In this document: one piece after another, positions 60,001 to 64,000 of the stretch | Layout: every line of letters starts with the position of its first letter | How positions within the stretch are numbered: position 1 is the first letter of the stretch | Source: Escherichia coli | GTDB lineage: Bacteria; Pseudomonadota; Gammaproteobacteria; Enterobacterales; Enterobacteriaceae | DNA length: 64,000 nucleotides | NCBI RefSeq assembly: GCF_003334815.1 | Contig: NZ_QOWO01000022.1 | Direction: 5' to 3' (one strand) | Position numbers: made by a program

Positions 60001-63000
60001 AAAGCAGCATATTATGCTGATTTGTGTGCGGTGTCTGGAGGATTAGATCGTTTAAAAATTTTAGGCGATCTCTTCTACTAAAAATGATGAAAAACACAGC
60101 ATAAAAGATCGTTTGTGGAATTGTCTATTTTTTTGACATAGTTCAAAAAAACGACGTTTTTTAGGTGGTTAATGAGAGGCCTGGTAAATCAGAGAAATCG
60201 TGTCGGCTTTTCAAAGCGGTGGAAAAGGGGTATATTGCGGATCGTTATTCAGTGGCTTTTGGGATCCTCGCGGTCCGGAAAGCCAGAAAACGGCAGAATG
60301 CGCCATAAGGCATTCAGGATGTATGGCAGAAACGACGGCAGTTTGCCGGGGCCGGAAGGCTGAAAAAAGTTTCAGAAGGCCATAAAGGAAAACCCCCATA
60401 ATCTTCCTGTCGAACTTGGCGGAACGCACAGAAGATTATGGGGGCCTCACAGAATACGGGATAAGTATATATGAAACCGTGTCAGAGATTCAACCCTTCG
60501 CAGTGTATTAACGCACGGCATTCTGTTTCCGCCATAAGCGACAGCTTGTGGCGGCCCTGAACCAGACCTCATTTACTGAAAGCACATACCGTCAGGTAAA
60601 GAACCCGAATCCGGTGTTCACACCCCGTGAAGATGCCGGAACGCTGAAGTTCTGCGAAAAACTGATGGAAAAGGCGGTGGGCTTCACCTCCCGTTTTGAT
60701 TTTGCCGCGCATGTGGCGTATGCCCGTTCGCGCGGCCTGCGCCGGCGTATGCCGCCGGTGCTGCGCCGCCGGGCGATTGATGCGCTGCTGCAGGGGCTGT
60801 GTTTCCACTATGATCCGCTGGCCAACCGCGTCCAGTGCTCCATCACCACGCTGGCCATTGAGTGCGGACTGGCGACGGAGTCTGAGGCCGGGAAACTCTC
60901 CATCACCCGTGCCACCCGTGCCCTGAAGTTCCTGTCTGAGCTGGGGCTGATAACCTACCAGACGGAATACGACCCGACAATTGGCTGTAACATCCCGACC
61001 GACATCACGTTCACGCCGGCACTGTTTTCCTCACTCGATATATCAGAAGAGGCGGTGGCTTCCGCACGCCGCAGCCGCGTGGAATGGGAAAACAAGCTGC
61101 GCAAAAAGCAGGGGCTGGATGCGCTGGGTATGGATGAACTGATAGCGAGAGCCTGGCGTTTTGTGCGCGAGCGTTTCCGTAGTTATCAGGCAGAGCTTAA
61201 GTCCCACGGCATGAAACGTGCCCGTGCGCGCCGCGATGCAGGCAGGACCCGTCAGGACATTGTCACCCTGGTGAAACGGCAGCTGACACGTGAAATCGCG
61301 GAAGGGCGTTTCCGCGGAAGCCTGGAGGCCGTGAAGCGCGAAATCGACCGTCGCGTGAAGGAACGCATGATAATGTCGCGGAACAACAACTACACACGGC
61401 TGGCCACTGCCTCACCCTGAGTTTGACCTCATCTGAATAATCCGGCCTGCGCCGGAGGCTTCCGCACGTCTGAAGCCCGGCGACGCACAAAAAAGCAGCA
61501 CAGCACACAAAAAACAGCCTCATCATCTGCCTTCCGGCTCGCCTTGCTCCCCCTGTTTTTCACGCAAAACACGTCTCACAGACGGGGAATTCTGTTTATC
61601 CACATTTAACTGCAAGGGACTTCTCCGTAAGGTTACAACCGTTAATGCTATAAAGCGCCAGCCGCAGGCGTTACAGGGTGCAATGTTTCTTTTAAACCCC
61701 AGTACTGTATTTCCTTTAAACTACTTAATTACTTCCATTTGAAAAGAAAACCTATTCAGTGCCTGTCCTGTGGACAAGCAAATATGCACCTCCCACGCTA
61801 ACGCGCGGGCCCCGAACCTCACCGTTCTGAAACCACAGCAAAAAGACATCAGGAATAAAAACATCACACAAACGCAGCACCGTGCTCACCTCTCATAACT
61901 GAAAAGCGAGGCCGCCCCCGCCCGAAGGGCGGGAACAACATCGCTTTTAATTATGAATGTTGTAACTAAACATCATCATCGCTGTTAGTCTTCTGGCTGG
62001 ACGTACTGAATACACGCTCGTAAGCGGCCCTGACGGCCCGCTAACGCGGAGATACGCCCCGACTTCGGGTAAACCCTCGTCGGGACCACTCCGACCGCGC
62101 ACAGAAACTCTCTCATGGCTGAAAGCGGGTATGGTCTGGCAGGGCTGGGGATGGGTAAGGTGAAATCTATCAATCAGTACCGGCTGACGCCGGGCTTCGG
62201 CGGTTTTACTCCGGTATCATATGAAACAACTGAGTGCCGCCTTATATGCCGCTGGCGCGGCATCAGGATAACTGAAGAGTGACAGTACACATTAACATCA
62301 AACAGACTTGTTAAGCAGTCTTTCAGGGTGTAAGGTGAAGACCTGTTAAACAGTCTCAGAGGTGTGTTATGCCCAGTATCATTTTGTCTGACACCAGTGC
62401 AAGTGTCAGTGAACTGAAAAAAAATCCAATGGCGACAGTCAGTGCCGGAGAGGGGTATCCTGTTGCCATTCTTAACCGGAATCAGCCTGCATTCTACTGT
62501 GTTCCTGCTGAATTGTATGAAAGGATGCTTGATGCTATGGATGACCAGGAGCTGGTGAAACTGGTTACTGAACGCAGCAATCAGCCACTACATGATGTGG
62601 ACCTGGATAGTTATTTATGACTTATACGGTTAAATTCAGGGATGATGCCCTCAGGGAATGGCTGAAACTGGATAAATCCGTTCAACAACAGTTCGCAAAA
62701 AAACTAAAAAAATGCAGCGAAAATCCTCATATACCTTCAGCAAAACTACGAGGATTAAAAGATTGCTACAAAATAAAACTTCGCGCATCAGGTTTTCGTC
62801 TGGTCTATCAGGTGATTGATGACATGTTAATTATTGCGGTTGTCGCAGTAGGTAAACGTGAACGTAGTCATGTTTACAATCTCGCCAGCGAGAGAATGAG
62901 ATAGGGGGTGTAAATGCTTTTAAGTTTTAGTGAGTTAGATGTTCTTATTTATCAGGGGAAGGTTGGGGGTTTATTTCGTGAAAGAAAAAACGAAAGGGTT

Positions 63001-64000
63001 GCTACAGACATTGATTCCAGAAACAAGTCATCATCAAGCAGTCATGAATATGATTCAGTTTTATCATTTCAATTTATTTGTGATAATGGCAAAGAAATAA
63101 ATGTGAATTTAACAAATTGGAACATTAACATATTTCCAGGTCAAGAGCTTATTATTTATTTTGTGGAAAACTCAAAGAAAAATAAAAAAATACCATACAT
63201 GATAAAAAACAAAAGCACATCGGAAGTGACTAATAATGTTCAAGAAATGTATAAAGAGTTTTTTTATACATCATACTTCAAACTGATAATACCTTTCCTG
63301 TTAATCATTTCTTACTTTATGTCATCCATATCTGTGGCTATCATGTCATTCGTTTTATATGTCATAATCAGAAGAAGAATAGGAAAAGATTTCTTTTCAG
63401 AAATAAAAATGAAAAGGTTAAAAAAAGAAGATATCATGGGGTTAGAGCACGTAATATAGGGGCGACTGGTTCTTATAAGGGACCGTCTAGTTATCGCGGT
63501 AGGGTGTACTCCCGCGCTATACGGTGTTTTCAGACCGCCCGTTGAAGCAGGAACCAGACGCTGAGCAATCAGCCGTCACCCACTAATGGGAATCCCCCTC
63601 CTGAGTCACGAAGTGCGAAGGTGGGGGAGGATGTCAAGTGTGCAGTATCAAAAAACTGTATCACTGGTATAATCCAGTAAAGAGCATATTGAGAACTTAT
63701 TATGTCGTCACGCAACTCTGTACATGATTTTATAATGCTGCTCCCGGTGCTACTGTTGGTCGGGTGGGTAGTTTTTGTGATAATTCTCATGTTTCGGGAT
63801 GATAAATGTGACAAAACTTACCGTGAAGGTTCGTTTCCCGAATTTATTTGTCTCCATTCTGATCGCTCGTCACTTCGAGAAACCGATTCTGAGAAACTCA
63901 TTGTCAACTATACAGAAATACAGGTATACAATCAGGAGAATAGGTAAAATCCATAATACTATAGCTAAAAAAATATATACGGGGATCAGGCGTCTGTATG

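What the first reader, a model, noticed from the sequence alone, without database searches (positions are those of the whole stretch)
62914..63947. Very AT-rich membrane-protein genes immediately downstream of the toxin-antitoxin pair
A 181-aa protein with C-terminal TM helices starts 9 nt after the RelE/ParE-like gene, followed by a small TM protein with an extended -10-like promoter. The composition contrasts with the replicon region, and the placement next to a TA module is where abortive-infection or exclusion cargo is often found.
Basis: inference. Interest (0 to 1): 0.4.

Follow-up and report, generated by a model that had tools for sequence, protein, structure and literature searches.

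The report
Orphan AT-rich membrane gene behind plasmid toxin-antitoxin
The 181-codon AT-rich gene is a real but uncharacterised accessory gene, often broken, joined to the end of a plasmid toxin-antitoxin operon; the second small gene is an ordinary conserved plasmid backbone gene (yaeA), and nothing yet shows either one defends against phage.

Summary
The window end is an I-complex (IncK2/Z-typed) plasmid: repA, a Phd/RelE pair, then ORF181 (62914-63459). ORF181 starts 9 nt after the relE stop. At 28.8% GC it is the most AT-rich 546-nt stretch in the 64-kb window. It is a real gene. A stop-free run of 181 codons was reached in 0 of 5000 shuffles, pN/pS among intact alleles is 0.12-0.24, and two full-length relatives (37-44% identity) also lie beside toxin-antitoxin (TA) genes in equally AT-rich DNA. 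The predicted protein has an N-terminal OB-like beta domain, a 33-residue hydrophobic segment and a basic tail. It matches no Pfam, NCBIfam, PADLOC or PHROG family and no phage sequence. It is not a required TA component: roughly 550 plasmids carry the pair without it, with homology ending at the relE stop. About a quarter to 40% of copies carry independent frameshifts. ORF81 is YaeA, an I-complex backbone ORF (40.7% GC), separated from ORF181 by a spacer holding an IS200/IS605 right-end remnant, so the two are not a unit. My best guess is a costly, conditionally expressed membrane effector read through from the TA promoter. An abortive-infection or exclusion role remains untested. Interest is low to moderate.

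The parts
62309..62356 (+). Two direct repeats TGTTAARCAGTCT (62309-62321 and 62344-62356) just upstream of the antitoxin start; a probable operator of the TA operon
   Evidence: Read directly from the sequence. The operator role is inferred from what is generally known about type II TA autoregulation.
62369..62620 (+). Phd/YefM (YafN-like) antitoxin gene, 83 aa
   Evidence: NCBIfam YafN E 4e-10. RefSeq names it Phd/YefM family antitoxin, WP_001139207.1. Its stop overlaps the toxin start (ATGA, 62617-62620).
62617..62904 (+). RelE/StbE-family toxin gene, 95 aa
   Evidence: TIGR02385 at 34.6 bits, above the 27.9 cut-off. WP_000222775.1. Homology to the roughly 85-91% identical alleles of other plasmids ends exactly at its stop, 62904.
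62905..62913 (+). 9-nt junction carrying the ribosome-binding site of ORF181 (AGGGGG at 62903-62908)
   Evidence: The Salmonella homolog has a similar RBS context (GGAGTGTAAATG against GGGGTGTAAATG). No terminator-like site lies between relE and ORF181.
62914..63459 (+). ORF181: orphan accessory gene (RefSeq WP_000926984.1, 'hypothetical protein') encoding an N-terminal OB-like beta domain (aa ~8-99), a hydrophobic membrane segment (aa 121-153, nt 63274-63372) and a basic C-terminal tail
63177..63259 (+). Homopolymer-rich stretch inside ORF181 where independent 1-nt indels truncate the protein (63177; the A7 tract 63184-63190; a T run at 63259)
   Evidence: At least four different frameshift alleles occur, plus an in-frame 9-aa deletion and a compensated double frameshift.
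63460..63526 (.). Non-coding tail of the TA-ORF181 module. It is colinear with other ORF181 plasmids up to about 63490 and again at 63490-63533.
63527..63637 (+). Remnant of the right end of an IS200/IS605-family element (last ~57 nt of tnpB plus the right end, terminating in ...GATGTCAA). It occurs only in this sub-lineage and is not part of the ORF181 module.
   Evidence: 98% identity to the 3' end of an intact tnpA/tnpB element in L003. Absent from L011, L014-L016 and L018.
63665..63673 (+). Extended -10 promoter element TGgTATAAT ahead of yaeA
   Evidence: Conserved in K2/Z and IncI1 plasmids.
63702..63947 (+). yaeA: conserved I-complex backbone ORF (81 aa here, 77 aa in IncI1) with an N-terminal hydrophobic helix; function unknown
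   Evidence: The exact sequence lies in a cluster named YaeA by UniRef, seen on 1000 or more contigs. About 90% nt identity to ColIb-P9 and IncI1 plasmids. The ORF is kept in L005 and L007, frameshifted in L002, and has its 5' end replaced in L011.

Best explanation
ORF181 is a genuine, horizontally acquired orphan gene joined to the 3' end of the replicon-proximal phd-relE operon of an I-complex plasmid. This much is shown. It encodes a small inner-membrane-anchored protein. The model has an N-terminal OB-like beta-barrel at moderate confidence, a 31-33-residue hydrophobic segment, and a strongly basic C-terminal tail. The tail and the lack of a signal peptide suggest that both ends face the cytoplasm; that topology is inferred. 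It has its own ribosome-binding site, sits 9 nt after the relE stop, and has no terminator or convincing promoter in between. It is therefore most likely transcribed as a third cistron from the autoregulated TA promoter. That would keep it low in steady state and raise it when the antitoxin is depleted by stress, phage-induced shut-off or plasmid loss (inferred). The function I consider most likely is a conditionally expressed, fitness-costly membrane effector that arrests growth or excludes an invader (speculative). It is optional cargo and not part of the TA mechanism. ORF81 is unrelated: it is the backbone gene yaeA with its own extended -10 promoter.
For: Evidence that it is a real gene:
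- No shuffle of this DNA gave a stop-free run of 181 codons (0 of 5000).
- 17 of 26 substitutions among ten plasmid copies fall at codon position 3 (p = 8e-4), and pN/pS is 0.12-0.24 among intact alleles.
- An exhaustive HMMER search of 1.84 billion representatives found two diverged full-length relatives: P0018 (37-38% identity) and the Salmonella L013 ORF 7806-8342 (44%). There are 57 invariant positions, including polar residues inside the hydrophobic segment.

Evidence that it is foreign cargo:
- It has the lowest GC in the window, and the relatives are 25-28% GC inside ~50% GC DNA.
- Homology of other plasmids' TA pair stops at the relE stop codon, and different genes follow it.

TA neighbourhood in all three lineages:
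- Downstream of relE here.
- Downstream of HigB/HigA-like genes in L013.
- Upstream of a VapB antitoxin gene, with the ORF's 3' end fused to a higB remnant, in L012.

Architecture:
- Hydropathy.
- AF2 model built on the 3-sequence alignment, mean pLDDT 64, with the beta domain at ~70-80.

Operon reading:
- No terminator-like site lies in the gap, and the number of promoter-like sites is no higher than in shuffles.

Cost:
- At least four independent frameshift alleles exist. 4 of 10 complete copies and 11 of 40 sampled PLSDB records are disrupted.
Against: - There is no homology to any characterised protein, defence model, holin or exclusion protein and no phage homolog.
- Transcription, toxicity, topology and any phenotype are untested.
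- Frequent inactivation fits a useless decaying gene as well as a costly one.
- TA genes are common in plasmid accessory regions. L012 and L013 are related (74% nt identity, and a shared higB piece). TA adjacency therefore rests on about two independent contexts.
- In L013 the homolog lies ~250 nt after the preceding gene, so tight operon coupling is not a family trait.
Confidence: 0.4

Rival explanations
1. ORF181 is a functionless passenger. It would be a piece of foreign AT-rich DNA that once encoded a useful protein in another host, is probably silenced in E. coli, and is now decaying by frameshifts.
For: The family is tiny, with three lineages among 1.84 billion representative proteins. 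About 25-40% of copies are disrupted by independent indels or an IS91 insertion. Plasmids with disrupted copies persist in several countries and hosts. There is no recognisable domain.
Against: pN/pS of 0.12-0.24 among intact alleles and the third-position excess indicate purifying selection that is ongoing or recent. The full-length ORF, its start position and many residues are conserved across 37-44% identical relatives despite DNA where stop codons arise easily.
Confidence: 0.3
2. ORF181 is an entry-exclusion or conjugation-related inner-membrane protein, possibly working with a lipoprotein partner.
For: The Salmonella homolog lies inside a VirB-type T4SS operon, between virB4 and virB5, and is immediately followed by an AT-rich lipoprotein ORF. 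From my own knowledge, exclusion proteins are typically small, divergent membrane proteins or lipoproteins.
Against: In the window the gene sits next to the replicon and far from transfer genes, with no lipoprotein partner. In L013 it is part of an AT-rich insertion together with TA genes, not T4SS backbone. There is no similarity to any named family. From my own knowledge, I-complex plasmids already have their own excA/traY exclusion system, which is also mentioned in PMC8004404.
Confidence: 0.1
3. ORF181 is an obligatory third component of the Phd/RelE system, such as a regulator, chaperone or second toxin needed for addiction.
For: The gap is 9 nt with no terminator. In all 10 copies examined the TA pair is directly upstream.
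Against: About 640 PLSDB plasmids carry this TA pair but only about 90 carry ORF181. In IncF and IncK2/Z examples, homology ends at the relE stop and IS elements or other genes follow. The TA genes stay intact in plasmids where ORF181 is frameshifted or cut by IS91.
Confidence: 0.05
4. ORF181 and ORF81 form one AT-rich two-gene membrane module.
For: They share a strand, both have hydrophobic helices, and they lie 242 nt apart.
Against: ORF81 is YaeA. It is present at ~90% nt identity in ColIb-P9 and IncI1 plasmids that lack ORF181. Its GC is 40.7%. The spacer is 50% GC and holds an IS remnant. YaeA has its own conserved promoter element.
Confidence: 0.03

Closest known systems
Cargo slot after the replicon-proximal TA pair of I-complex plasmids (yacA-yacB followed by yacC, a 3'-5' exonuclease, and yadA in ColIb-P9/R64)
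   Same: Same position: repA/ori, then a type II TA pair, then one or two accessory genes, then yaeA and the ProQ/FinO gene. [quoted passage not shown]
   Different: The TA pair here is Phd/RelE, not YacA/YacB. The cargo is an unrelated AT-rich membrane protein rather than an exonuclease.
YaeA (I-complex backbone ORF), for ORF81
   Same: The exact protein sequence lies in a cluster named YaeA, and the IncI1 form is 77 aa.
   Different: None of substance. The C-terminus differs by an 8-nt indel. The function of YaeA itself is unknown, and PGAP does not annotate it.
Membrane effectors of abortive-infection systems that join a small beta-barrel to transmembrane helices, such as the CBASS effector Cap15 (recalled from memory)
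   Same: About 180-200 aa, with a small beta-barrel domain plus a short transmembrane region. A cytoplasmic sensing domain driving membrane damage is a plausible way for ORF181 to work.
   Different: The domain order is reversed. There is no cyclase or other sensor gene nearby and no hit to any PADLOC model. The resemblance is architectural only.
Holins and pinholins (recalled from memory), for the C-terminal half
   Same: A short hydrophobic hairpin or helix followed by a highly charged basic C-terminal tail.
   Different: There is no endolysin or lysis cassette, no PHROG hit and no phage homolog. ORF181 also has an extra ~110-aa N-terminal domain.
Membrane-anchored bacterial OB-like domains (for example DUF2500/YhhM, PDB 3q6c) and generic OB-folds (cold-shock domains, SSB, PriB)
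   Different: Sequence identity is 5-17%. The scores are weak and come from a model with pLDDT 64. There are no Pfam hits. In YhhM the membrane anchor is N-terminal (from memory).

Membership tests
Type II RelE/StbE-Phd toxin-antitoxin pair (the neighbours of ORF181) | The toxin matches a curated RelE/StbE model above its cut-off | tested here: met
   TIGR02385 at 34.6 bits against a cut-off of 27.9
Type II RelE/StbE-Phd toxin-antitoxin pair (the neighbours of ORF181) | A small antitoxin gene lies directly upstream and overlaps the toxin start | tested here: met
   YafN/Phd-like, E 4e-10, which is below that model's own curated cut-off (40.1 of 99 bits). ATGA overlap at 62617-62620. RefSeq names it Phd/YefM.
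Three-component TA system with ORF181 as an obligatory member | The third gene co-occurs with the TA pair wherever the pair is found | tested here: not met
   638 PLSDB records carry the pair but about 90 carry ORF181. Homology ends at the relE stop in L009, L010, L020, L021 and L022.
Known anti-phage defence or abortive-infection families | Sequence match to a PADLOC-DB model | tested here: not met
   0 families at E <= 1 for ORF181 and for both relatives
Known anti-phage defence or abortive-infection families | Reduces phage plating or aborts infection | not testable with these tools
   Needs a phage challenge of isogenic strains
Holins | A small membrane protein encoded in a phage lysis cassette, with homologs in phages | tested here: not met
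   No PHROG hit below E 0.1. No tblastn match in 50,697 phage records. No endolysin nearby.
Entry-exclusion proteins of conjugative plasmids | Encoded within the transfer region of the plasmid it serves | tested here: inconclusive
   Not met in the window, where the gene is next to the replicon. Met by position in L013, between virB4 and virB5, but inside an AT-rich insertion.
YaeA (ORF81) | Sequence identity with proteins named YaeA, and the conserved position upstream of the ProQ/FinO gene | tested here: met
   Exact-sequence cluster named YaeA. Same position in ColIb-P9 and IncI1 plasmids.
IS200/IS605-family element (the spacer remnant) | tnpA and/or tnpB plus both ends | tested here: not met
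   Only 111 nt match, covering the 3' end of tnpB and the right end at 98% identity. No other part of the element occurs in the window. It is a remnant.

The most novel reading that the evidence does not exclude
ORF181 and its two relatives would found a new family of TA-operon-coupled abortive-infection effectors. A cytoplasmic OB-like domain would sense phage nucleic acid or protein at the membrane. The C-terminal holin-like segment would then collapse the membrane potential. Expression would be gated by derepression of the neighbouring toxin-antitoxin promoter when phage shut off host transcription.
Probability: 0.12. Interest if true: 0.6.

Novelty: new member of a known kind. Interest (0 to 1): 0.25.

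Why it matters
If ORF181 proved to be a conditionally toxic or phage-excluding membrane protein driven by a TA promoter, it would add a new protein family to plasmid-borne defence. It would also give a concrete example of a TA operon acting as the switch for neighbouring cargo on I-complex and IncF resistance and virulence plasmids of E. coli and Salmonella. As things stand, the practical value is modest. The work corrects the picture to one orphan cargo gene plus one backbone gene. It defines the cargo slot and its boundaries. It also shows that the gene is under purifying selection yet is repeatedly lost, which makes a simple intact-versus-frameshift comparison experimentally attractive.

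Tried and rejected
- Family scans of ORF181, its two relatives and the L013 lipoprotein found nothing significant: Pfam, NCBIfam, PADLOC and PHROGs.
- A PDB sequence profile search found nothing.
- The word-indexed search of 5.8 billion clusters, with a single sequence and with a profile, returned only the same three lineages. The exhaustive HMMER search agreed, apart from a repeat-protein hit (P0024) that I regard as spurious.
- tblastn against phages gave no match. Against plasmids it gave only the ORF181 lineage.
- The single-sequence AF2 model was poor (pLDDT 58), and the alignment-based model was only moderately better.
- Fold searches gave generic OB-folds and weak matches (E ~2e-3) to uncharacterised ~180-200 aa bacterial proteins, which I could not retrieve for follow-up.
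- Rfam on the region found only the repZ pseudoknot and a sub-threshold CopA-like match near repA. It found nothing in the spacer.
- I considered that the IS200/IS605 remnant marks the right border of an ORF181-carrying mobile unit. I rejected this because ORF181 plasmids of other sub-lineages lack the remnant.
- I considered programmed frameshifting or phase variation at the A7 tract. I rejected it because the disruptions occur at several different sites and the heptamer is not a canonical slippery site.
- I noticed 'ERKNE' both in the ORF181 N-terminus and at the HigB C-terminus. I judged it coincidental, because the real higB remnant is the 40-nt fusion at the 3' end of the L012 ORF.
- Literature searches for the protein accession, yac/yae gene names and I-complex plasmid genetics found no study of this gene.
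Full report
**1. Setting**

The end of the window is the replication region of an I-complex plasmid. The repZ-type pseudoknot (Rfam PK-repZ, 173 bits) lies at 60385-60535, and repA lies at 60548-61420. Plasmids identical over 62300-64000 are typed IncK2/Z, with MOBP and MPF_I. After the origin region come a Phd/YafN-like antitoxin (62369-62620) and a RelE/StbE toxin (62617-62904; TIGR02385 above its cut-off). ORF181 (62914-63459) follows, then a 242-nt spacer, then ORF81 (63702-63947). Just beyond the window lies a ProQ/FinO-family gene on the other strand.

**2. Checking the observation**

The coordinates and the 9-nt gap are correct, and an AGGGGG ribosome-binding site lies 5 nt before the ATG. 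ORF181 is 28.8% GC. The window averages 50.9%, repA is 59.8%, relE is 39.6% and the antitoxin is 45.6%. ORF181 is the single most AT-rich 546-nt stretch in the 64 kb. In DNA this AT-rich, stop codons are frequent, and none of 5000 shuffles gave a stop-free run of 181 codons.

A single hydrophobic stretch covers aa 121-153 and is followed by a basic tail with 6 K/R in the next 15 residues. ORF81 has an N-terminal hydrophobic helix. It is preceded by a perfect extended -10, TGgTATAAT, at 63665-63673. However, ORF81 is 40.7% GC and the spacer is 50% GC. The label 'very AT-rich' therefore applies only to ORF181.

**3. ORF81 is a backbone gene**

Its exact sequence belongs to a cluster that UniRef names YaeA, seen on 1000 or more contigs. 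The 77-aa IncI1 form is equally widespread. The region 63658-63972 is about 90% identical to ColIb-P9 and other IncI1 plasmids that lack ORF181. The ORF is kept in L005 and L007, frameshifted in L002 and has its 5' end replaced in L011. PGAP leaves it unannotated. It is not cargo and does not form a unit with ORF181.

**4. ORF181 is a real gene of an orphan family**

RefSeq annotates it as hypothetical protein WP_000926984.1. No Pfam, NCBIfam, PADLOC or PHROG family matches. An exhaustive HMMER search of 1.84 billion representatives found, besides near-identical copies and fragments, only two diverged relatives:
- P0018, 194 aa, 37-38% identity, on a 1.2-kb Logan contig (L012).
- A Salmonella enterica ORF called as 113 aa. 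It is in fact full length at 178 aa (L013 7806-8342) and 44% identical.

The three align end to end with 57 invariant positions. These include polar residues inside the hydrophobic segment (T119, S120, Y134, S137, S138, S145, Y149) and the motif after it.

Among ten complete plasmid copies, 17 of 26 substitutions are at codon position 3 (p = 8e-4). pN/pS among the four distinct intact alleles is 0.12-0.24. The protein has therefore been under purifying selection.

**5. ORF181 is repeatedly lost**

Database proteins include many truncated forms. One is a +1 allele at the A7 tract (63184-63190), represented by clusters of 115 and 29 member sequences. There are also N-terminally disrupted alleles (a C-terminal 98-aa call with 86 members), an in-frame 9-aa deletion and a compensated double frameshift. 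The main intact cluster has 268 members.

In ten complete plasmids, four carry 1-nt deletions at three different sites (63177, 63184, 63259). One of these deletions is shared by plasmids from China and France, which argues against sequencing error. In one plasmid, homology stops 40 nt past the relE stop and an IS91-family transposase gene follows. In a spread sample of 40 of the 90 PLSDB hits, 11 are split or truncated.

**6. ORF181 is optional cargo in a variable slot**

The Phd/RelE pair occurs in 638 PLSDB plasmids, directly after IncFII-type or I-complex replicons. ORF181 DNA occurs in about 90 of them. In plasmids with the roughly 85-91% identical TA alleles, homology to the window ends exactly at the relE stop codon (62904). 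What follows there is IS2, IS91, IS100 or a serine acetyltransferase gene.

In ColIb-P9 the equivalent slot holds yacA-yacB, a 3'-5' exonuclease and a hypothetical gene. A published comparison of IncI1 plasmids notes replacement of everything between repZ and yaeB by 'three substitute genes'. It also notes that the IncI1 accessory region carries the phage-inhibition genes ibfA and pifA (PMC8004404). ORF181 is therefore not an obligatory third TA component. The TA-ORF181 block (about 62272-63490) does travel as a unit among IncK2/Z, IncI-gamma/K1 and IncFIA/FIC-typed plasmids.

**7. Context of the relatives**

In L013 the homolog lies in a 25-33% GC insertion within a ~50% GC VirB-type T4SS operon, between virB4 and virB5. 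It comes directly after a Gp49/RelE-like toxin with an HTH antitoxin, and after a HigA antitoxin (TIGR02607, 83.8 bits). It is followed by an AT-rich lipoprotein ORF with an LTAC lipobox.

In L012 the ORF's 3' end is fused to a 40-nt remnant of that higB-like gene, and a VapB-family antitoxin gene follows. L012 and L013 are 74% identical at the DNA level across the ORF. Together with the window they therefore give about two independent contexts, both rich in TA genes. PLSDB holds no other diverged copy, and no phage genome in the collection searched encodes a homolog.

**8. Structure**

These hits are generic and do not assign a function. The topology is unresolved. The basic C-tail and the lack of a signal peptide favour a hairpin with both ends in the cytoplasm, whereas AF2 draws a single helix.

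**9. Mechanism**

- Shown: gene reality, selection, cargo status, membrane-anchor features and TA adjacency.
- Inferred: co-transcription with phd-relE. The gap is 9 nt, ORF181 has its own SD, there is no terminator-like site, and promoter-like matches are no more frequent than in shuffles. Two direct repeats, TGTTAARCAGTCT, upstream of the antitoxin look like the operator. ORF181 would then be held low by TA autoregulation and induced when the antitoxin is depleted.
- Speculative: the protein is a costly membrane effector that arrests growth or excludes invaders. That would explain both purifying selection and recurrent loss.

The main rival is a decaying passenger with no present function. 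A role in exclusion or conjugation is a weaker rival, based only on the L013 position.

**10. The spacer**

Positions 63527-63637 are 98% identical to the last ~57 nt of tnpB plus the right end of an intact IS200/IS605-family element seen in another plasmid (L003). The match ends in ...GATGTCAA. L007 keeps a longer piece, and the window has a deletion between TCAG microhomologies. ORF181 plasmids of other sub-lineages lack the remnant. It is therefore a later scar and not the border of the cargo.

**11. Verdict**

ORF181 is an uncharacterised orphan accessory gene in a known kind of plasmid cargo slot, and yaeA is ordinary backbone. Nothing ties either gene to phage defence yet. Interest is low to moderate (0.25). 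The most novel reading still open is a TA-gated abortive-infection effector family, which I put at about 12%.

Noticed in passing
window 63527-63637: An orphan right-end fragment of an IS200/IS605-family (tnpA/tnpB) element, 98% identical to the intact element in L003 and ending in TCAA. It covers the part of the element where the TnpB guide RNA scaffold is encoded (from memory) and abuts the yaeA promoter. Rfam gave no hit.
   Followed up: partly
window 63702-63947: yaeA is conserved across I-complex plasmids (on 1000 or more contigs) with a perfect extended -10, yet PGAP and RefSeq leave it unannotated. Its function is unknown, and it is frameshifted or 5'-truncated in some plasmids.
   Followed up: partly
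window 63661-63680: A hairpin (ACTGG / CCAGT) encloses the yaeA -10 hexamer. On the minus strand it was scored as a terminator-like site, but the T run is not adjacent. It could end transcripts coming from the convergent ProQ/FinO gene.
   Followed up: no
window 62309-62356: Two 13-nt direct repeats TGTTAARCAGTCT, 35 nt apart, lie just upstream of the antitoxin start codon and are a probable TA operator.
   Followed up: no
window 62115-62282: A small ORF (55 aa, RefSeq hypothetical WP_000841010.1) between the origin region and the TA pair. It lies within a stretch conserved among IncFII-type and I-complex plasmids, and it is annotated as frameshifted in some of them.
   Followed up: no
L013 7700-8700: An AT-rich two-gene cassette (the ORF181 homolog plus a 113-aa lipoprotein ORF with no family match) is inserted with TA genes between virB4 and virB5 of a Salmonella enterica plasmid-like contig. 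PLSDB holds no close relative of this plasmid.
   Followed up: partly
L013 7565-7680: A ~110-nt element just upstream of the AT-rich cassette matches, at 91-96%, unannotated DNA of many small ColE1-like plasmids and others (Yersinia, Klebsiella, Enterobacter). From memory it resembles the primosome-assembly region near ColE1 origins.
   Followed up: no
L012 1-1207: The Logan contig starts and ends with the same 26-mer inside a VapB-like gene, so it is either circular in the assembly graph or a repeat. The homolog's 3' end is fused to a 40-nt higB remnant, which indicates recombination among TA loci.
   Followed up: partly
L007 3251-3294: A weak RAGATH-18 Rfam match (28 bits, below the 44.9 gathering score, E 0.047) lies next to the longer IS200/IS605 remnant. 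It is probably chance.
   Followed up: no
window 57511-58131 and upstream (L001 1491-3832): An 'OB-fold-containing' (NfeD-like) gene is paired with a flotillin-family gene a few kb upstream of repA, followed by a NusG-family gene. These are I-complex genes that I did not examine.
   Followed up: no
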